Shown: positions 1,414 to 41,651 of the stretch, in pieces
Layout of the letters: each line of letters opens with the position of its first letter
How positions within the stretch are numbered: the stretch's first letter is position 1
IMG/VR virus record: IMGVR_UViG_3300009553_000023
Coordinates: 1,448-65,447 of that record
Length of the DNA: 64,000 nt
From: a virus
Lineage: Duplodnaviria; Caudoviricetes
Strand: one strand, 5' to 3'
Notes under the pieces: generated by a model
Told to the model about the DNA's origin: nothing
What the model saw: only the letters and a program-made list of their open reading frames with translations
Database searches by the model: none
Made by a program: the position numbers and the translations under genes

Positions 1414-1598
1414 CGACCAGTCCCGCCACAGATCCTCTCCTAGCCCTACAGCTAAAGCTCCCCACCCATACCTACAGAGCAGTGAAGCTAAGGGCAAAGG
1501 AACTCCAAGGGGACGAGAGGGAGGCCTATCTCAAGGAGGTCCTGGCTCAGCGGGAGCGGAGCGAAGAGGCGGGGCAAGCAAAGAAAGAGGAGCCATGA
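1410..1598 (+). CDS. small hypothetical protein
   Basis: ATGA overlaps with both neighbouring genes (translational coupling). Confidence 0.6.
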   Translation: MTTSPATDPLLALQLKLPTHTYRAVKLRAKELQGDEREAYLKEVLAQRERSEEAGQAKKEEP

Positions 1599-2416
1599 GC
1601 GCAACCGCCGAGATCCCAACGGTCCAGTTCGCTGCCGAGGAGCGGCCCGACTGCGGGTGGTGCACTGGGCCGGGCGACGTGCTCGTCGAGATCGAGAAGG
1701 ACTCCAACCACTTCGTGGCGCGTTGCGATCGCTGCATCGACATGCCAGTCGAGCCCGACGAGGAGCACCTGAGCAAGAACGGCAAGCCCGCCTTCGACCT
1801 TACCCCGGAGCAACGCAACGCGATCTTCGCCGGCGACCACACCGCCATCAAGCTCAAACCCGGCGAGACCAAGCCAGAGGTAGAGGCAGGACAGACGGTC
1901 GTACTCGCTAGGTCTCGAGGCGGCAAGCAGTTCCTCGCCAAGACCGAGAGGGAGCGCAAGAAACGAGTGGAGGAAGGTCTCCCGCTCCTCGCCGAGATCC
2001 CGAGCGAGCCAACCGTCTGGATCGTCTTCCACGAGCCGAAGTTGAAGGAAGGTCGATGGCAGATCTCCTTCGACGCCCACGACACACGCGAAGCTGTCCG
2101 CACCCTCGCCAGCCCACCGACCGGCACACGCCTCCCCGGCCTCAAGACCCGCAAGCGCAGACGGGTCCCGAAGAAGGGCGAGTACAAAGCTCCAGGCCTC
2201 GGGCTCTCCGACGACGCAGCCCGCGGCTACGGAGGCGGTGGCAAGTCGACCGTTGATGAGCGCGAAGGTGTCGACGACGCCTCACTCCAGCGCTATGCGC
2301 AGCTCGCCGAAGAGGACGGTTTGAAGAGACGCACGAAGCACCGCCAGGCGGCCAAAATGATGGAGCGAGAGATGCGCGCTGCCGAGAATCGCAAGCGGAG
2401 ATTGCCGTCCGCTTGA
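1595..2416 (+). CDS. Zn-finger (CxxC..CxxC) plus degenerate ASCH-like domain protein
   Basis: CGWC...CDRC; EQRNAIFAGDHTA..GQTVVL resembles the ASCH signature of 50659..51048 (ELAEAILRGEKTA..GQVFTI); GAGGAG RBS. Confidence 0.6.
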   Translation: MSATAEIPTVQFAAEERPDCGWCTGPGDVLVEIEKDSNHFVARCDRCIDMPVEPDEEHLSKNGKPAFDLTPEQRNAIFAGDHTAIKLKPGETKPEVEAGQTVVLARSRGGKQFLAKTERERKKRVEEGLPLLAEIPSEPTVWIVFHEPKLKEGRWQISFDAHDTREAVRTLASPPTGTRLPGLKTRKRRRVPKKGEYKAPGLGLSDDAARGYGGGGKSTVDEREGVDDASLQRYAQLAEEDGLKRRTKHRQAAKMMEREMRAAENRKRRLPSA

Positions 2417-2442
2417 ATCCGTCCGCTGCAACCGTCTAGACT
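2413..2442 (+). promoter_or_regulatory. predicted sigma70-type promoter (putative late promoter)
   Basis: TTGAAT (2413-2418), 18 bp spacer, TAGACT (2437-2442); predicted TSS ~2449 coincides with the first RNA stem. Confidence 0.55.
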
Positions 2443-2448
2443 TATCGC

Positions 2449-2938
2449 GCTGTCCTGACCCAGGTTCGTCGCGGCCAATAGAGGCCGTCGCAGGTCAAGG
2501 GAACAGCCAGAAGTACCACCTCACCCACTTCTCCTTGGCGGCTTCGGTCGCAAGCGCTATGCCCTCGGAGCCCGTGCATGGGCTCGCTGGTCGCGGCCCC
2601 TTGGCCGGACGGGGTTCCGGTCGCGACCGGTTAATCCCAATCGAGGCAAGCGAAGGGGGCCCAACTTCAAGGACCGAGCCTGACCCTCTGGTCACTCGGT
2701 CTCACACTTCGGGGGACGGCTCGTGCGCGGGCACTCCTGTTCGGTAGCCAATCCGCGCAGGACCGCGTGTACGTAAAGAAGCTGGCCAGCGCCGACTCCC
2801 TCGAACCCTTGCAGGACCGCTCGCCCCCACCGCGAGCACATCGGACCAGCGGGACCGAGACCTCGTCCCGTCGAGAGACGGATGAGCCGAAAGGCCCGAC
2901 GAGGCCGGCCGCTGGCCGCTTCAAGGAAAGGACTGCAG
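2449..2938 (+). ncRNA. large structured RNA / late-operon leader, family unassigned
   Basis: Nested stems with UUCG and GNRA (GAGA, GAAA) tetraloops and G-U pairs on the + strand; no convincing CDS. Confidence 0.65.
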
Positions 2939-2940
2939 CG

Positions 2941-3027
2941 ATGAACGAGACCGTGACCACCTGGCGGCCCCGCAGCGAGAGCGCGCCTGGTCCACTGGAA
3001 CGAAACCGCGAAACACGGCAGATCTGA
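2941..3027 (+). CDS. 28-aa small ORF
   Basis: AAGGAAAGGA upstream of ATG; MNETVTTWRPRSESAPGPLERNRETRQI. Confidence 0.35.
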   Translation: MNETVTTWRPRSESAPGPLERNRETRQI

Positions 3028-3030
3028 GCC

Positions 3031-3144
3031 ATGTCCTTCATCTCAGGTGTAGCCATAGGCATCGCCTTCGTAATCGCAGTAGAGGCTGGGGTCATAGGCA
3101 TCTGGTACCTGATCGTCAAGTACGGAGAAGGCAAGGGGGACTGA
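3031..3144 (+). CDS. 37-aa single-TM membrane peptide
   Basis: Translated by hand: MSFISGVAIGIAFVIAVEAGVIGIWYLIVKYGEGKGD; not in ORF track. Confidence 0.55.
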   Translation: MSFISGVAIGIAFVIAVEAGVIGIWYLIVKYGEGKGD

Positions 3145-3153
3145 GGAGTTGCC

Positions 3154-3366
3154 ATGCCCTCCGTCAAGACAGCCAGGCGCCACGAACGCCGGCCAGGTCC
3201 ATACCCAGCCGATCGTCATTGCTCCTGCGGCGCTGTCCTCTCCCGCAACAACCCAGGCCCTCTCTGCGCTCCATGCCAAGGAGGAGATTGGCACTCACCG
3301 GATGAGCTGAGCACGAGACGTGAACTCAACCTGGCCCGCGGGCGAGTTGAAGGGCTAGTCGCGTAA
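3154..3366 (+). CDS. small Zn-ribbon protein
   Basis: CSCG...LCAPC; GAGGAG RBS. Confidence 0.6.
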   Translation: MPSVKTARRHERRPGPYPADRHCSCGAVLSRNNPGPLCAPCQGGDWHSPDELSTRRELNLARGRVEGLVA

Positions 3367-3749
3367 TGGGCAAGGGGATCGGCATGCCCGCCGCGCTCAA
3401 GCTCGAATGGTTCGCCCGGGTGATCCACGAGTTCTTCGGCGAGTACGCCTACCACGTCGGCTCTTCCCTGAAGTGCAGCATGGGGCAGGCGGAGACCTGG
3501 CGCGATGTCGATGTCCGGTTGATCCTCCCCGACGACGACTTCGATGCTCTCTTCGGCACCCTGACCGAACCGCGCTGCCTCAACCTGAAATGGAACGCAG
3601 CCTGCCTCGCCTTCGCCGCGCTCGGCCGGGACATAACCGGCCTACCGATCGACTTCCAGATCGACCGCATGACAGAGGCGAACAAGGAATACGACGGCGA
3701 GCCGCGCTCTGCGCTGATCCCGGCCGACCACATTCCGGCCCCGGCATGA
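3366..3749 (+). CDS. minimal nucleotidyltransferase (Pol-beta superfamily)-like protein
   Basis: hGS motif (YHVGSS), DVD (WRDVDVRLIL) and third Asp (PIDFQI). Confidence 0.7.
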   Translation: MGKGIGMPAALKLEWFARVIHEFFGEYAYHVGSSLKCSMGQAETWRDVDVRLILPDDDFDALFGTLTEPRCLNLKWNAACLAFAALGRDITGLPIDFQIDRMTEANKEYDGEPRSALIPADHIPAPA

Positions 3750-3844
3750 CCCTCTTCCACAAAGAAGACACCCTCCTCATCCTCATCCTCATAGCCATAG
3801 GGAGCCTTGCCGCCATCGTCCTTATCCAGTGGAGATGGGCGTGA
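3746..3844 (+). CDS. 32-aa membrane peptide
   Basis: MTLFHKEDTLLILILIAIGSLAAIVLIQWRWA; ATGA overlap. Confidence 0.5.
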   Translation: MTLFHKEDTLLILILIAIGSLAAIVLIQWRWA

Positions 3845-3887
3845 GGCCTCCTCGAGGTATTCCGCCCTTGAGGCCGAGGCCGGTGGG

Positions 3888-4370
3888 CTACCGCTTGCCC
3901 TGAAGGATCTCGCCGTCGTAGGGGACGCGCAGGCTGATCCCGAGATTCGGATTGCCTTCGCCCTGACCGATGTAGGCCATGCAGATCGCCTGCTTGCCCT
4001 CTTCCTTCAAACCACGTAGTCGCTTCCCGAGGCGGCGCGCGGTACCGCGAGGTAGATGCCCGACGAGCTCGCCGTCGACCTCGACGCGAACCGCGAATTT
4101 GTCGTGCGGGTTGTCGGGGTCAAGGACCAGCTCTGCACTGCACTCGTAGCCATGTTCGCCCTTCGCAGGGCACTGACTCACTCGCTTGAGCGCCGGTTGG
4201 TAGAAGGACTCGCCCACGACATTGATCCGCATGCAGTTGTCGTAGCGGCTCCAGTCGGGCTCGATGCCGGTCACCACCTTGCCGGCCATCGAGTGGCCCG
4301 GATGTGCAGCAGCAACCACCCGCTTCGGCCCAAAGAGCTTCCCCAGGAAGTTTCTGTCCTCGCTCGTCAC
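3888..4370 (-). CDS. HIRAN domain protein (moron)
   Basis: INVVGESFYQ...DPDNPHDKFAVRV...VGHLPR HIRAN signature; GTG at 4370 with GAGGAGGGG RBS. Confidence 0.8.
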   Translation of the reverse strand: MTSEDRNFLGKLFGPKRVVAAAHPGHSMAGKVVTGIEPDWSRYDNCMRINVVGESFYQPALKRVSQCPAKGEHGYECSAELVLDPDNPHDKFAVRVEVDGELVGHLPRGTARRLGKRLRGLKEEGKQAICMAYIGQGEGNPNLGISLRVPYDGEILQGKR

Positions 4371-4448
4371 CGATCCCCTCCTCGCGAATGGCCAGCAAGA
4401 GCCTAAACGCTCCGCAGAACTGGTGCGCTCGCCGCAGAAAGAGATGCG

Positions 4449-6404
4449 ATGCCTGAATTTGATCTCAAAACGGATGTCGAGAACCGCCAGGACGGAGTTA
4501 GCGGTGAGACGCGTGTAGGCCCGGGAACTCCTGAAGCTGGCGAGGGCTACCACGCAAAACTGCACAACGAAGTCAATGCGGCGGTTAATCAGGTTGGCGA
4601 AGAACTAGACTCGCTTGGCAGCGCAGCTACCAAGGCTGTAGGCGCGGCGGGCGAATCAGGGAAGGTACTCGCCTCCGATGACCCCGCGCTCGTCCGAAAC
4701 GTCAAGAGTTTCGGCGCCAAAGGCAACGGTGCCACTGATGACGCAACGCCGATCCGCGAAGCCATCAAAGCTGTCGCTGAAGCAGGCGGAGGGACGGTCT
4801 TCTTTCCTGCGGGGAACTACCGAATCGCTTCGAATGTCGCGCTCAAACCGAAGGTAGAAATAAGGGGTGCGGCGCGCGAGGCGACGCTGATCAAAGCCGA
4901 CATCGGCGTCACGGTCGCGCCGTTTACGGCGACCGAAATTGAAGACACCGTCGTGCGCGACCTGGCGATTGACGGGGACGCCGTGGTCTTCGTCGGCAAC
5001 ACCTTTGGGATTAGCTGGACTCGGTGTAAACGTGTTCGCCTCACCAACGTTCGGATCAAAAACACGTACCACATCGGCGCCTACAGTACCGAATGCACGG
5101 ACTACTCGATCGACAACTGCCTGCTTGACGAATGCGGGAAGACCTCTGCGACCCCGAACTGCATCCACGTGCTCAAGGGGACGCGCGCGAAGGTCGCCTT
5201 CAACACGGTGATCGATTGGGGCAACGGCGGGAACGGTCGTGCGGTCTACGTCTCCGAATCGCCAGAAACGCAGATCATCGGCAATAGCTTCGCCAATCCC
5301 GGTGGTGTCAACCACTCCCACATGATCTCGGTCGACGCCGCCTCGGACCGATGCGTCATCACCGACAACTTGCTGGAAAACAGCGGCTACCCCGGCGAAG
5401 GGCGCAAATGCGTCGGGATCAGCGTCATCAACTCCGATGACCCACTCATCGGCAACAACCGCATTAGGGAGCCCACGCAAGACAAAGGCTCCCTGGAGTG
5501 CATTCAGGTCGACGGAACGTCGAAGCGGGCGACGATCACGGGCAACCACTGCGAGTACGGCGATGACAATGGCATCACCGCGTGGGGCGCCGGCGAACAC
5601 GTCGTCTCGGGGAACCTGATCGAGTTCGCCGCGCACCACGGGATCTCCGTGAACTCGAACAACTGCACCGTCTCGGGCAATCTCGTCAAGAACTCTGGGC
5701 AGCACCCAGAAATCATCAACCCCTCGGGAATCGGGATTCTGAGCGGCGTAACCGGGACCGTCGTCACGGGCAATCGCTGCTTCGACGACCAGGCGACGAA
5801 GACCCAGCTCTGGGGCGTCATCGAGATCAGCACCGCCGACAAAAACACAATCCTCGGCAACGATCTGACGGGCAACAAAGAAGGTCCAGTTTCCTACGTC
5901 GGCGCCAACACGATCGTCGGCGCGAACCAAGGGATGACGCCTCGCAAGGGAGAGGTGGAGATCCACAATATTGGAGCGACCACTTTCGATGACGCTCGAG
6001 CCGCGGTGACGCCTCCACTCGGGACCCTGCTGTATCGAGAAGACACCGGCCAGCTTGCTGCCCGAACGGGGGCCAACATCTGGACGGCACTCGCGAAGGA
6101 CAAGACCGCGACGCTGACCGATGGGGCCGGGGTGACCCCGAACTTCGCTAATGGCAACCACTTCATCCTGGTTGCTAAAGGCAATCGCACTATCAACAAC
6201 GTGACCAATCGCCTGGCTGGTCAGACGATCACCATGAGCATCAAAAACGAAACCGGTGGCGCGATGACAACCACCTGGAACGAAGCCTTCAAATTGGCTG
6301 GCGCCTGGGTCGACCCCGCCAATGGCAAACGGCGAACGATCACCTTCTACTGCTATGACGGCTCGAACTGGGAAGAGCTGAGCCGCTCGGCTGCGGATAT
6401 CTAA
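4449..6404 (+). CDS. pectate-lyase-like right-handed beta-helix protein (spike/depolymerase)
   Basis: NVKSFGAKGNGATDD...GGGTVFFPAGNY Pectate_lyase_3 start; repeated I/V-x-G-N beta-helix rungs. Confidence 0.85.
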   Translation: MPEFDLKTDVENRQDGVSGETRVGPGTPEAGEGYHAKLHNEVNAAVNQVGEELDSLGSAATKAVGAAGESGKVLASDDPALVRNVKSFGAKGNGATDDATPIREAIKAVAEAGGGTVFFPAGNYRIASNVALKPKVEIRGAAREATLIKADIGVTVAPFTATEIEDTVVRDLAIDGDAVVFVGNTFGISWTRCKRVRLTNVRIKNTYHIGAYSTECTDYSIDNCLLDECGKTSATPNCIHVLKGTRAKVAFNTVIDWGNGGNGRAVYVSESPETQIIGNSFANPGGVNHSHMISVDAASDRCVITDNLLENSGYPGEGRKCVGISVINSDDPLIGNNRIREPTQDKGSLECIQVDGTSKRATITGNHCEYGDDNGITAWGAGEHVVSGNLIEFAAHHGISVNSNNCTVSGNLVKNSGQHPEIINPSGIGILSGVTGTVVTGNRCFDDQATKTQLWGVIEISTADKNTILGNDLTGNKEGPVSYVGANTIVGANQGMTPRKGEVEIHNIGATTFDDARAAVTPPLGTLLYREDTGQLAARTGANIWTALAKDKTATLTDGAGVTPNFANGNHFILVAKGNRTINNVTNRLAGQTITMSIKNETGGAMTTTWNEAFKLAGAWVDPANGKRRTITFYCYDGSNWEELSRSAADI

Positions 6405-13740: not shown

Positions 13741-14658
13741 TTGCGCTTCCCTGGCCTGAACAGGCAGGCGAAAAAGGCCGACCGGTCGTCTGGAGCGATG
13801 GTCGCCCTCTACCCGACCGCAGACGTGGCGCAAGCGCTGGCACAGTCAGGTGGCGAGTCGGCCGAGGAACTGCACCTAACGCTTGCCTTCCTTGGTGAAG
13901 CTGCCGATCTGCGCGACCCGGAGGCAGTGCGGAAGGTGGTCGAGGGCTTTGCGGCCTCATCTCCGCCGCTGGCCGGCGTGGTTTCGGGTATCGGCCATTT
14001 TACGGCTGGGCCGGAGCCGGTCACGTACGCCAGCGCCGATGTGCCAGGGCTGCCTCGATTCCGCGAGCGTCTCTGCGAAGCCCTATGTGGAGTCGGTGCT
14101 GAGCCATCGACGGACCACGGATTCAGCCCGCACATCACCCTCGCCTACGACCAGCGGGACCCGACGATCCCGAACCTCGCCCTGGCGTTCAACGAGGTCG
14201 CACTCGTCCTCGGCTTCGAGCGCTTTACGTTCCCACTGACAGGCAAGAACGCCGCAGACGGGGAGACGATCGCCACCAAGGGGGAAGGGGAGATGGAACT
14301 GACTGTGCCCCTCTGGAAGGACGACGCCAAGCGCATCGTCTACGGGGTCGTCATGCAGCCACATGTCCCCGACTCCCAAGGCGACTGGCAGGAGCCCGAG
14401 GACATCGAAGCAGCGGCGCACCGCTATCTCGCCGAATCCCGCAAGCACGACGTGCAGCACGCTGAGGAGCAAGTCTCAGTAGTACCTGTAGAGAGCTTCG
14501 TCACGCCCACGGATATGGAGTACGCCGGGCGCCCGGTTCTCAAGGGCTCCTGGGTGATGGCGGTGCGGGTGGACGATGACGAAGTCTGGAGCCAGGTCGT
14601 CAAGCGCGAGCTCACCGGCTTCTCGATCGGCGGCACCGGCGAACGCCTGAACGCCTGA
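13741..14658 (+). CDS. 2H phosphoesterase (2'-5' RNA ligase family) fused to XkdF-like prohead protease
   Basis: Two HxT motifs (LHLTLAF, PHITLAY); then RIVYGVV.P...DSQGD...IEAAAH...GSWVM...LTGFSIGG. Confidence 0.85.
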   Translation: MRFPGLNRQAKKADRSSGAMVALYPTADVAQALAQSGGESAEELHLTLAFLGEAADLRDPEAVRKVVEGFAASSPPLAGVVSGIGHFTAGPEPVTYASADVPGLPRFRERLCEALCGVGAEPSTDHGFSPHITLAYDQRDPTIPNLALAFNEVALVLGFERFTFPLTGKNAADGETIATKGEGEMELTVPLWKDDAKRIVYGVVMQPHVPDSQGDWQEPEDIEAAAHRYLAESRKHDVQHAEEQVSVVPVESFVTPTDMEYAGRPVLKGSWVMAVRVDDDEVWSQVVKRELTGFSIGGTGERLNA

Positions 14659-38912: not shown

Positions 38913-38950
38913 GACCCCCGTTGCCCCTGGTTGGGCGGCGGGGGTTTCTT
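38913..38950 (+). terminator. intrinsic terminator
   Basis: GACCCCCGTTGCCC/GGGCGGCGGGGGTT stem then TCTT. Confidence 0.75.
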
Positions 38951-39613: not shown

Positions 39614-39642
39614 GCCCTCGCCTCGGCGGGGGCTTTTCTTTT
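39614..39642 (+). terminator. intrinsic terminator
   Basis: GCCCTCGCC/GGCGGGGGC stem plus TTTTCTTTT. Confidence 0.8.
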
Positions 39643-40892: not shown

Positions 40893-41651
40893 ATGGCGGA
40901 GCAATCAGCCCTGAGCGCCTACGAGCAGATGGCGCCGTTCTACGATGACTTCACGGCGCACCACGACTACAGGTCCCTGACCGTTGATTTGCTCGACATA
41001 CTTGGGCGCTGGGGGTTGCGGGGCGATCGACTGCTCGACGTAGGCTGCGGCACAGGAAACAGCTTCATGGAGATGTTGTCCGGTGGCTGGAAAGTGACGG
41101 CGTGTGACATCTCGCCTTTGATGTTGGCGAAAGCCCGGGCAAAGTCGCCCGCGTCAGTTCGATTGGAGGTCGCCGACATGCGCGAACTCCCCGCGCTCGG
41201 GGAGTTCGACCTGATCTGGGCGCTCGATGACGCAGTGAATTACCTGCTGAGCCTCGAGGAACTCGTGTCGACACTGACGGCGATGCGAGCCAACCTTGCC
41301 CCTGCGGGTCTCCTGCTCTTCGATGTCAACGAGCTCCTGATGTATCGGACCTTCTTCGCCGAAGAGAGCACGACGGAGTTCGACGGGCGGCGCGTAACGT
41401 GGCGCGGCCTCACCGCACGAGATGTGGCACCAGGCTCGATCTGCGAAGCTGAGGGGATAGCTGGCGCTCACGTCGCCCGCCATCAGCAGCGGCACTTCCC
41501 GGAAGCGACAGTGCTGCAAGCGCTGGATCGCGCTGGCTTGCAATGTCTCGCCGTCTATGGCTCCCATGATGGGGGCCTAGAGCAGCCGCTTGACCAATCG
41601 GCGCACACCAAGGCCGTCTACGTCGCGCGAACTGGAACGGGTAATGGGTAG
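40893..41651 (+). CDS. class I SAM-dependent methyltransferase (not a DNA methylase)
   Basis: LLDVGCGTG, CDISPLML, ADMRELP..GEFDLI, DAVNYL; no NPPY or PCQ motif. Confidence 0.9.
   Translation: MAEQSALSAYEQMAPFYDDFTAHHDYRSLTVDLLDILGRWGLRGDRLLDVGCGTGNSFMEMLSGGWKVTACDISPLMLAKARAKSPASVRLEVADMRELPALGEFDLIWALDDAVNYLLSLEELVSTLTAMRANLAPAGLLLFDVNELLMYRTFFAEESTTEFDGRRVTWRGLTARDVAPGSICEAEGIAGAHVARHQQRHFPEATVLQALDRAGLQCLAVYGSHDGGLEQPLDQSAHTKAVYVARTGTGNG

What the first reader, a model, noticed from the sequence alone, without database searches (positions are those of the whole stretch)
2449..2938. ~490-nt multi-domain structured RNA at the head of the late operon
Seen: directly after a TTGAAT-18-TAGACT promoter the sequence folds almost continuously. 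Domain 1: GCTGT..TGACC/GGTCA..ACAGC (2449-2507). Domain 2: multibranch 2531-2659 with GCGGC-UUCG-GUCGC, GAGCCC/GGGCTC and a 13-bp GCTGGTCGCGGCC/GGTCGCGACCGGT stem. Then GACCGAG..TGACC/GGTCA..CTCGGTC (2672-2701), TGCGCGG/CCGCGCA (2724-2759), GCTCGC/GCGAGC, and a junction at 2846-2915 with GAGA and GAAA tetraloops. G-U pairs point to the + strand. Known: phages carry large ncRNAs (GOLLD, ROOL) and RNA antiterminators (HK022 put). Inference: an unassigned large ncRNA or an antitermination leader for the ~35-kb late operon.
Basis: partly seen in the sequence, partly recalled or inferred. Interest (0 to 1): 0.8.

Follow-up and report, generated by a model that had tools for sequence, protein, structure and literature searches.

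The report
Modular structured leader of phage late operon
The roughly 500 bases between a conserved promoter and the first late gene of this soil actinobacterial phage form a real, non-coding, heavily folded RNA leader, but it is a patchwork of separate hairpin cassettes that sit between tRNA genes in related phages, not one large RNA.

Summary
The stretch is non-coding, has no Rfam match and no tRNA, and folds better than shuffles (z -3.08, + strand).

It is not one conserved large RNA. Against 12 related phage or prophage loci, two of them inside Solirubrobacterales MAGs, it breaks into five modules with different histories:
- M1, the 5' hairpin, is shared with 2 relatives.
- M3, the 'E3' hairpin, occurs in 10 of 13 loci.
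- M4 is 90-95% identical in 2 otherwise diverged relatives.
- M5 is a GNRA-capped hairpin just before the first ribosome-binding site, in 8 of 13 loci.

M1, M4 and M5 keep pairing through compensatory changes. E3 varies in stem length while its pairing is kept.

In 7 of 12 relatives the same leader carries tRNA genes between these hairpins. A strand-specific (A)ACTTC/GCTTC motif recurs in the leaders, and a third of homology breakpoints lie near it.

Best reading: a promoter-proximal, tRNA-operon-like precursor whose hairpins act as processing or stability elements ahead of the late mRNA. Antitermination is neither supported nor excluded. These are new RNA motifs in a small family, of moderate interest.

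The parts
2413..2442 (+). Promoter-like site TTGAAT-18-TAGACT; the predicted transcript starts near 2448-2450
   Evidence: Sequence. The same TTGAAT/TGGATT-N17-19-TAGAMT arrangement sits at the end of the upstream gene in 9 relatives found by regex, and in L002 by alignment. It is the only + strand match in the 64-kb window to a loose consensus. The generic sigma-70 scan did not call it, because it matches 8 of 12 positions and the threshold is 9.
2447..2526 (+).
   Evidence: Fold (z -1.38). It is 78-80% identical in L002 and L112. In the 3-sequence consensus, 27 pairs are predicted and 3 have changes on both sides with the pair kept.
2527..2531 (+). ACTTC punctuation motif at the M1/M2 junction
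   Evidence: Similarity to L112 and L002 ends at 2525-2532.
2530..2663 (+).
   Evidence: Fold: + strand -68.8 kcal/mol, z -1.77; - strand z +0.05. No homologue was found in 12 relatives, 401 Solirubrobacterales genomes, 5 whole relative records or an IMG/VR pattern scan. L112 joins M1 directly to M3.
2663..2714 (+). M3 ('E3'): AACTTCA-GGACCGAG[TGACC-CTCT-GGTCA]CTCGGTCT-CACACTTCG; hairpin at 2671-2702
   Evidence: z -4.13, 0/200 shuffles. Present in 10 of 13 loci. All 10 of 10 fold to the same hairpin. The lower stem and 3' flank are invariant, and the upper stem and loop vary in length with pairing kept.
2708..2805 (+). M4: three-way-junction module
   Evidence: 94.7% identical to L050 and 90% to G001/L126. 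Every substitution inside predicted stems keeps pairing: GU/AU once, UA/UG/CG once and UA/CG once. The other substitutions lie in loops.
2819..2837 (+). M5a: small hairpin GCTCGC-loop-GCGAGC
   Evidence: It is kept in the 5 loci where this piece is homologous: window, L050, L111, L113 and L126.
2843..2917 (+). M5b: long hairpin or three-way junction closed by GG(A)CCAGCG/CGCTGGCC, with GAGA and GAAA loops
   Evidence: z -5.36 for 2817-2925. The closing helix is paired in 8 of 8 loci, and 2 of its 8 pairs have compensatory changes. An apical GNRA loop is present in 6 of 8.
2918..2940 (+). GCTTC motif, then a purine-rich ribosome-binding region AAGGAAAGGA ahead of the ATG at 2941
   Evidence: Sequence. 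TGGCC(G/A)CTTC is conserved in 8 loci.
2941..3027 (+). First ORF after the leader (28 aa), ending in the conserved peptide ..SAPGPLER..
   Evidence: DNA similarity to L005, L113 and L119 over 2958-3044. The peptide was read from the sequences.

Best explanation
Window 2447-2940 is the untranslated 5' leader of the phage's structural (late) operon. It is transcribed from a conserved sigma-A-type promoter that overlaps the end of the last replication-module gene.

The leader is a string of independent RNA hairpin cassettes (M1-M5) joined by short linkers, several of which carry a (A)ACTTC/GCTTC motif. In related phages and prophages of Solirubrobacterales the same promoter drives the same backbone hairpins, with tRNA genes, tRNA-like genes, other structured cassettes or small genes slotted between them.

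The transcript therefore most likely behaves like a tRNA-operon precursor (inferred):
- It is cut in the linkers. An actinobacterial RNase E, which prefers to cut 5' of C in unpaired RNA, is the obvious candidate. In relatives RNase P would cut at the tRNAs.
- The conserved hairpins would define and protect the ends of the pieces.
- M1 would cap the primary 5' end.
- E3 would be a sequence-specific processing or binding site.
- M5 would form the protective 5' structure of the processed late mRNA, just ahead of its ribosome-binding site.

This phage carries no tRNA cargo. It carries two non-tRNA cassettes instead: M4, shared with two relatives, and M2, which is unique.

Shown: the non-coding status, the folds, the covariation, the mosaic homology and the tRNA occupancy in relatives. 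Inferred: transcription, cleavage at the linkers and the stabilising roles.
For: Non-coding:
- No Pfam match for the three longest ORFs in the gap.
- GC frame plot flat over 2417-2700.
- M4 and M5 are adjacent only in this phage.
- A 1-nt indel against L050/L126 lies inside the 2767-3027 frame.

Known families excluded: no Rfam match at E<=10 locally or at gathering score window-wide. No tRNA in the window.

Promoter: conserved in position and spacing in 10 of 12 relatives and unique in the window.

Structure:
- Overall z -3.08; M3 and M5 at 0/200 shuffles.
- M5 closing helix 100% paired in 8/8 with 2 covarying pairs; observed covariation score 0.301 against 0.122 in shuffles and at most 0.084 for slid partners.
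- M4: all stem substitutions are compatible with pairing.
- M1: 3 compensatory pairs.
- E3: 10/10 form the same hairpin.

Strand: invariant G-U pairs in M1 and M4, GNRA loops in 6/8 M5 copies, and M2 folds only on the + strand.

Mosaic and tRNA context:
- Searches show the mosaic.
- ARAGORN finds tRNAs inside the leader of 7 of 12 relatives.
- The M5 hairpin directly follows a tRNA 3' end in L002, L051 and L109.

Motif:
- AACTTC occurs 14 times against 1.4 expected, and ACTTC 25 times against 4 for its complement GAAGT, in 8,135 nt of leaders.
- 34 of 104 homology-breakpoint clusters lie within 8 nt of the motif, against 18.3 expected.

Plausibility of the enzyme:
- Both host MAGs encode an RNase E/G protein.
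Against: - There are no RNA data. No RNA run holds the sequence, so transcription, ends and cleavage are all inferred.
- Three of the five modules do not beat shuffles on their own.
- The absolute MFE of the - strand is slightly lower than that of the + strand.
- The covariation rests on 3 sequences for M1 and M4 and on 8 for M5.
- The motif counts include homologous copies. Only a third of breakpoints lie near the motif, and breakpoints are counted in both partners, so the p value (1.5e-4) is inflated.
- The invariant sequence of E3 goes beyond what a mere stabilising hairpin needs.
- 5 of 12 relatives, like the window, have no tRNA. The backbone therefore has some role that does not depend on tRNAs.
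- The RNase E preference comes from Mycobacterium, not Thermoleophilia.
Confidence: 0.5

Rival explanations
1. Cis-acting regulatory leader for late transcription, on the lambda PR'-6S-tR'/Q or HK022 put pattern. The promoter-proximal hairpin (M1) or a protein made by the upstream gene would modify RNA polymerase. E3 or other hairpins would act as attenuators that are read through only late in infection.
For: - Position: a promoter directly after the last gene of the replication module and ahead of about 36 kb of + strand structural genes.
- The upstream gene always ends inside the promoter.
- The promoter spacer (CGTCCGC...CCGTC) is conserved even where it is non-coding: window, L112, L113, L119.
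- A hairpin starts within about 10 nt of the predicted start in all 9 loci folded.
- E3 follows the stop codon of a gene in L005 and L111, as a terminator would.
Against: - E3 and the other hairpins lack a U tract, while this phage does use canonical hairpin-plus-U terminators at 38913-38946 and 39614-39633. None of that kind lies in the leader.
- The upstream 273-aa protein has no Pfam, PHROG, PDB or Atlas lead.
- M1 is shared by sequence with only 2 relatives.
- tRNA genes placed downstream of a terminator would make little sense.
Confidence: 0.2
2. The cassettes are cargo RNAs that act in trans. M4, and perhaps M2, would be small phage RNAs (regulators, decoys or anti-defence RNAs) delivered from a highly transcribed slot in the way tRNAs are. 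The backbone hairpins would merely release them.
For: - M4 is 90-95% identical in genomes whose neighbouring genes are only about 62-66% identical, and its loops are invariant.
- The same slots hold tRNAs and tRNA-like genes with abnormal anticodon arms in relatives.
- The phage also encodes RNA-ligase-like and tRNA-methyltransferase-like domains.
Against: - No target, partner or known family is identified.
- High identity could equally reflect recent exchange.
- M2 has no homologue, so nothing shows that it is selected.
Confidence: 0.18
3. The conserved pieces work at the DNA level, and the RNA folds are incidental. They would be operator or recombination sites, or targets of the free-standing GIY-YIG-like (T5orf172) endonuclease genes found next to E3 in relatives.
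For: - T5orf172/MUG113 ORFs end exactly at the 5' flank of E3 in L005 and L111.
- The E3 sequence is invariant.
- A perfect 10-12 nt palindrome follows M1 in L002 and L112.
- The mosaic breakpoints themselves.
Against: - G-U pairs and G-U/A-U alternations are tolerated only on the + strand.
- GNRA apical loops in 6/8 M5 copies.
- Compensatory changes in helices whose arms lie 60-100 nt apart.
- M2 folds only on the + strand.
Confidence: 0.1
4. Part of the stretch is protein-coding (GTG ORF 2767-3027, or the - strand ORF 2667-3167).
For: Weak GC3-like periodicity over 2700-2900, in the frame of the 2767-3027 ORF (GC 0.75-0.80 at third positions).
Against: - No family match.
- The frame is broken by a 1-nt indel in L050 and L126.
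- Upstream of 2941 the ORF spans M4 and M5, which are not adjacent in any relative.
- Only the last 28 codons (2941-3027) are conserved as a peptide.
Confidence: 0.02

Closest known systems
Phage tRNA gene clusters transcribed as one precursor together with non-tRNA stable RNAs (the T4 tRNA region with its small stable RNAs; recalled, not checked in a call)
   Same: A promoter-proximal, non-coding, multi-RNA transcription unit in a phage. tRNAs and other structured RNAs sit side by side in relatives.
   Different: This phage has no tRNA at all. The spacers are conserved hairpins with hypervariable interiors. The unit is fused to the head of the structural operon rather than standing alone.
GOLLD and ROOL large phage ncRNAs (their association with tRNA genes is recalled)
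   Same: Structured non-coding RNA of several hundred nucleotides in a phage, in a tRNA neighbourhood.
   Different: No match to any Rfam model. There is no conserved overall architecture, and the modules occur separately and in different orders in relatives.
HK022 put antitermination RNA and the lambda PR'-6S-tR'/Q late switch (recalled)
   Same: A structured RNA directly behind a promoter at the early/late boundary.
   Different: No canonical terminator in the leader. No Q-like protein family upstream. The leader is seven times longer than put, and most of it is variable.
Hairpin processing sites that punctuate polycistronic phage transcripts (T7 RNase III sites, recalled), and tRNA or 't-element' punctuation of organelle transcripts (PMC1920247, search listing and abstract only)
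   Same: Conserved irregular hairpins or tRNAs between functional units, which would define RNA ends.
   Different: The cleavage is not shown here. The stems are shorter than typical RNase III substrates, and a specific ACTTC-type linker motif accompanies them.

Membership tests
Any Rfam 15 family (including GOLLD, ROOL, riboswitches, self-cleaving ribozymes, tmRNA, RNase P RNA, tRNA) | Covariance-model match at the family's gathering score | tested here: not met
   Window-wide gathering search: 0 matches. In 2000-3600 at E<=10 there were only two chance-level hits, both outside the stretch or on the other strand.
tRNA gene / tRNA array | Cloverleaf recognised by ARAGORN or the Rfam tRNA model | tested here: not met
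   0 tRNAs in the window. The feature is met in the homologous leader of 7 of 12 relatives.
Intrinsic terminator (for E3 and the other hairpins) | G+C-rich hairpin followed by a U tract | tested here: not met
   No + strand terminator-like site in 1500-4600. E3 is followed by CACACTTCGGGG. Canonical examples exist elsewhere in the phage.
HK022 put-type antitermination RNA | Two stem-loops directly downstream of the promoter that make RNA polymerase terminator-resistant in cis | not testable with these tools
   A 5' hairpin is present, but its activity cannot be computed, and no sequence model of put was available to me beyond the Rfam search.
Lambda-type Q late switch | A Q-family antiterminator gene immediately upstream of the late promoter | tested here: not met
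   The 273-aa upstream protein has no Pfam or PHROG family. There is no PDB relative at E<0.1 and no Atlas hit of 0.9 or more.
Single large conserved ncRNA (generic) | Homologues share the whole architecture collinearly | tested here: not met
   No relative matches more than two adjacent modules, and M2 matches none.
MITE-like mobile insert (for M2) | Multiple copies in host or phage genomes | tested here: not met
   No credible copy in 401 Solirubrobacterales genomes; the best hit lies in a thiolase gene. None in 5 relative records, and none among 27 pattern hits in IMG/VR.

The most novel reading that the evidence does not exclude
The head of the late operon in this phage family is a dedicated 'RNA cassette array'. 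A strongly transcribed, promoter-proximal landing pad would hold structured RNA cassettes: tRNAs, tRNA-like RNAs with remodelled anticodon arms, and novel ncRNAs such as M4 and M2. These would be gained, lost and swapped between phages at short ACTTC-type linkers and conserved hairpin bases, and then released by host RNases. It would be an integron-like logic for RNAs rather than genes, with some cassettes acting against host defences.
Probability: 0.2. Interest if true: 0.75.

Novelty: new variant of a known kind. Interest (0 to 1): 0.5.

Why it matters
- It supplies four comparatively supported, unassigned RNA motifs (M1, E3, M4, M5) from phages of Solirubrobacterales, a poorly studied soil actinobacterial order.
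- It shows that what looks like one large RNA is a modular, exchangeable array tied to tRNA genes.
- If processing at the linkers is confirmed, it would be a compact natural system for studying how actinobacterial RNases carve phage precursors, and how phages shuffle RNA cargo.
- If not, it remains a well-delimited structured leader whose conserved E3 and M5 elements are good candidates for control of late-gene expression.

Tried and rejected
- Phage GenBank collection, blastn 'distant' with 2300-3200: no match.
- Two collection scans found nothing because my E3 pattern was one base too long for the relatives. The corrected pattern was used.
- The search for related loci with the Zn-ribbon alignment on genome contigs returned an error, 'no conserved stretch'.
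- The bare 15-nt E3 pattern gave 102 stretches, nearly all chance; 4 real relatives were picked out by context.
- BLAST of the leader against 401 Solirubrobacterales genomes gave only G001 as a real hit. The other 69 genomes had chance-level hits (E 6e-6 to 1e-2 per genome). The best of these lies in a thiolase gene. Two of the genomes (G227, G262) are flagged unpublished; nothing here rests on them.
- M2 searches were all negative.
- A scan for hairpins ending just before RCTTC across the window was not discriminating: 77 of 201 sites on the + strand and 116 of 231 on the - strand.
- AACTTC is not a window-wide intergenic signal.
- A five-sequence alignment of 5' hairpins including L113 and L119 gave no usable consensus, with a positive covariation term.
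- The first 85 nt of the relatives' transcripts fold into a 5' hairpin but mostly do not beat shuffles: z -0.06 to -3.13, with 2 of 8 at 2/200 or fewer.
- A hammerhead-like look of GGATGAGCCGAAAGGCC in M5 was rejected. The core positions differ, relatives lack it, and there is no Rfam hit.
- Sequencing runs: no RNA holder listed.
- The literature searches for phage tRNA-array spacers and for Solirubrobacterales phages returned nothing pertinent in their listings. I do not claim from these that nothing is in print.

Full report
**Context**

The window is 64,000 of the 65,447 bases of an IMG/VR virus record estimated at 72% complete.

- Upstream of the finding, on the + strand, lie an SNF2-type helicase (4-1413), a 62-aa ORF and a 273-aa ORF (1595-2416). 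The 273-aa ORF has no family.
- Downstream, also on the + strand, come a 28-aa ORF (2941-3027), a 37-aa hydrophobic ORF (3031-3143) and a 70-aa four-cysteine protein (3154-3366).
- These are followed by a pectate-lyase-like tail spike, the large terminase, portal, protease, major head and tail-fibre genes.
- The first canonical hairpin-plus-U terminators on this strand are at 38913-38946 and 39614-39633.
- The stretch therefore does sit at the head of a structural operon of about 36 kb.

**Observation**

- The generic sigma-70 scan does not call the site, because it matches 8 of 12 positions.
- It is the only + strand match in the window to a loose TTGHHN-N16-19-TA[GAC][AG][ACT]T consensus.
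- The same arrangement, overlapping the stop codon of the upstream gene, recurs in 9 relatives by regex and in L002 by alignment.
- The listed stems are present, and all but one appear in the MFE fold.
- The whole stretch folds at -235.8 kcal/mol against -210.7 +/- 8.2 for dinucleotide shuffles (z -3.08, 1/100). The - strand gives -239.5 kcal/mol, z -2.00.
- Rfam gives nothing, and ARAGORN finds no tRNA in the window.

**Coding potential**

- The GC frame plot is flat over 2417-2700. It shows weak periodicity over 2700-2900, in the frame of a GTG ORF at 2767-3027.
- That ORF, the TTG ORF at 2535-2747 and the - strand ORF at 2667-3167 have no Pfam match.
- The 2767 frame is broken by a 1-nt indel in the two homologues of that segment.
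- It spans modules that are adjacent in no relative.
- Only 2941-3027 is conserved as a peptide (..SAPGPLER..).
- I treat 2447-2940 as non-coding.

**Relatives**

- I used neighbouring proteins, DNA patterns and one metagenome scan, and collected 12 distinct related loci: L002, L004, L005, L050, L051, L109, L111 (same sequence as L110), L112, L113, L119, L125 and L126.
- L125 and L126 lie in contigs titled 'uncultured Solirubrobacterales bacterium' MAGs. L005 and L050 are classed as proviruses.
- The likely hosts are therefore Solirubrobacterales (Actinomycetota).
- The only DNA run holding the window is a rhizosphere metagenome that may be its source. No RNA run is listed.

**Mosaic structure**

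Sensitive blastn of 2300-3400 against these loci splits the stretch into modules:

- 2420-2532 (M1) matches only L002 and L112, at 78-80%.
- 2654-2714 (M3, 'E3') matches L004, L109, L111 and L112 by blastn, and its 3' part matches L050, L051 and L126. By pattern it also occurs in L005 and L125.
- 2690-2820 (M4) matches L050 at 94.7%, and G001/L126 at 90%.
- 2817-2862 and 2903-2943 (M5) match L050, L111 and L113; 2909-2943 also matches L110, the duplicate of L111. L126/G001 matches 2817-2862.

In L112, the closest relative on the upstream side, M1 is followed directly by E3. M2 is therefore an insertion, or its absence a deletion, of about 125 nt. In the other loci the same hairpins are separated by other material, so no relative shares the architecture as a whole.

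**tRNA context**

ARAGORN finds tRNA genes inside the homologous leader of 7 of 12 relatives:

- L002: Met, Ile.
- L050: Ser, Gln.
- L051: Ser, Met.
- L109: Gln.
- L112: an 88-nt 'Pro'.
- L125: one of undetermined identity, Met, Glu.
- L126: Met.

It finds none in L004, L005, L111, L113 or L119. The M5 hairpin starts 1-3 nt after a tRNA 3' end in L002, L051 and L109. The window's hairpins are therefore the counterparts of inter-tRNA spacers.

**Support for the individual folds**

- M5: the closing helix GG(A)CCAGCG/CGCTGGCC is paired in all 8 loci that have it. Two of its 8 pairs change on both sides (GC/CG in 3 loci; GC to AU, UA or GU). The covariation score is 0.301, against 0.122 +/- 0.033 in shuffles (0/500) and at most 0.084 when partners are slid. 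Its interior differs completely between loci yet always folds, and 6 of 8 carry apical GAAA or GAGA loops.
- M4: among the window, L050 and L126, every substitution in a predicted stem keeps the pair (GU/AU; UA/UG/CG; UA/CG), and the rest fall in loops. Three G-U pairs are invariant.
- M1: 27 consensus pairs, 3 of them with compensatory changes, in 3 sequences.
- E3: 10 of 10 copies give the same hairpin. The lower stem GGRCCGA/TCGGTCT and the 3' flank CACAC are invariant. The upper stem ranges from 5 to 8 pairs with loops CTCT, TCC, TTCG, ATCA and TTTCTC.
- M2: no comparative support. Its fold is strand-specific, with + strand z -1.77 and - strand z +0.05.
- Individually, only M3 and M5 exceed all 200 shuffles.

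**Linker motif**

- In 8,135 nt of leaders, AACTTC occurs 14 times against 1.4 expected from a first-order model. ACTTC occurs 25 times against 4 for its complement.
- In the window, ACTTC or GCTTC sits at 2527, 2664, 2706 and 2918. That places it at or next to the M1/M2, M2/M3 and M3/M4 junctions and at the end of M5.
- Across all leaders, 34 of 104 homology-breakpoint clusters lie within 8 nt of an [ACG]CTTC, against 18.3 expected.
- These counts include homologous copies and double-counted breakpoints, so this is a tendency and not a rule.
- The motif is not a genome-wide signal.

**Mechanism**

What is shown is a conserved promoter, a non-coding leader, helices maintained on the + strand, modular exchange, and tRNA occupancy of the same slots in relatives. 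From this I infer a tRNA-operon-like precursor that is cut in the linkers.

- Both host MAGs encode an RNase E/G homologue.
- In mycobacteria RNase E cuts immediately 5' of cytidines, with a weak preference for a preceding purine. [quoted passage not shown]
- A cut at A/CUUC would fit that preference, but it is not shown here.
- M1 would protect the primary 5' end.
- M5, which always ends in GGCC-RCTTC just ahead of the ribosome-binding site of the first ORF, would form the 5' structure of the processed late mRNA.
- The invariant E3 sequence suggests a sequence-specific partner that I cannot name.

**Rivals**

- A lambda- or put-like late switch fits the position and the conserved promoter spacer. 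It lacks a recognisable terminator in the leader and a recognisable antiterminator.
- A trans-acting cargo role for M4 and M2 is open.
- A purely DNA-level role is disfavoured by the G-U pairs, the GNRA loops and the long-range compensatory changes. However, T5orf172-type endonuclease genes abut E3 in L005 and L111 and may drive the mosaicism.

**Limits**

- There is no expression evidence.
- The family is small: 13 loci including the window.
- The collection scans are exhausted.
- Supplements of the cited paper were not consulted and are not needed for the statements made.

Noticed in passing
L125:4519-4593; L112:624-711; L126 about 3025-3133 (- strand); L002 about 2515-2640: A family of tRNA-like genes has normal acceptor, D and T arms but an abnormal anticodon arm. 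L125 has a 6-nt loop, and the other three have inserts of about 16-50 nt in the alignment (GCTYRGGCC...CGACCAAT) that extend the arm into a long hairpin. Each copy is preceded by CTTGGRGCA. ARAGORN calls one 'tRNA-???' and one an 88-nt tRNA-Pro; in L002 and L126 ARAGORN did not call it, and Rfam at gathering score did not report the L002 copy (L112, L125 and L126 were not Rfam-searched). The window has none.
   Followed up: partly
L005:2456-2950; L111:2558-3148: Free-standing T5orf172/MUG113 (GIY-YIG-like) ORFs are inserted in the leader, with their stop codons in the 5' flank of the E3 hairpin. They are possible homing endonucleases behind the mosaic exchange.
   Followed up: partly
window 13741-14658 and 40893-41651: The 305-aa ORF before the scaffold and capsid genes combines an N-terminal part that hits PHROG 'RNA ligase' families with a C-terminal head-protease part. 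A 252-aa ORF weakly hits a 'tRNA methyltransferase' PHROG. These are RNA-repair-like functions in a phage whose relatives carry tRNA arrays.
   Followed up: no
window 38913-38946 and 39614-39633: Two canonical + strand hairpin-plus-U terminators mark the likely end of the late operon.
   Followed up: no
L112:548-559; L002 about 1752-1761; window 2509-2522: A perfect palindrome follows the 5' hairpin: AGAGGTACCTCT in L112 and GAGGTACCTC in L002. It is degenerate in the window. It is too short to be an RNA hairpin and could be a protein-binding site.
   Followed up: no
window 2941-3027; L005:3858-3968; L113:3861-3995; L119:516-760: The first ORF after the leader varies from 28 to about 80 residues. 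It carries the peptide ..SAPGPLER.. near its C-terminus in the window, L005 and L113, and internally in the longer L119 ORF.
   Followed up: partly
window 2524-2531 and 2660-2668: M2 is flanked by near-identical CCCACTTC / CCCAACTTC, and its ends form an imperfect 12-nt inverted repeat, as a small mobile insert would. No second copy was found anywhere searched.
   Followed up: yes
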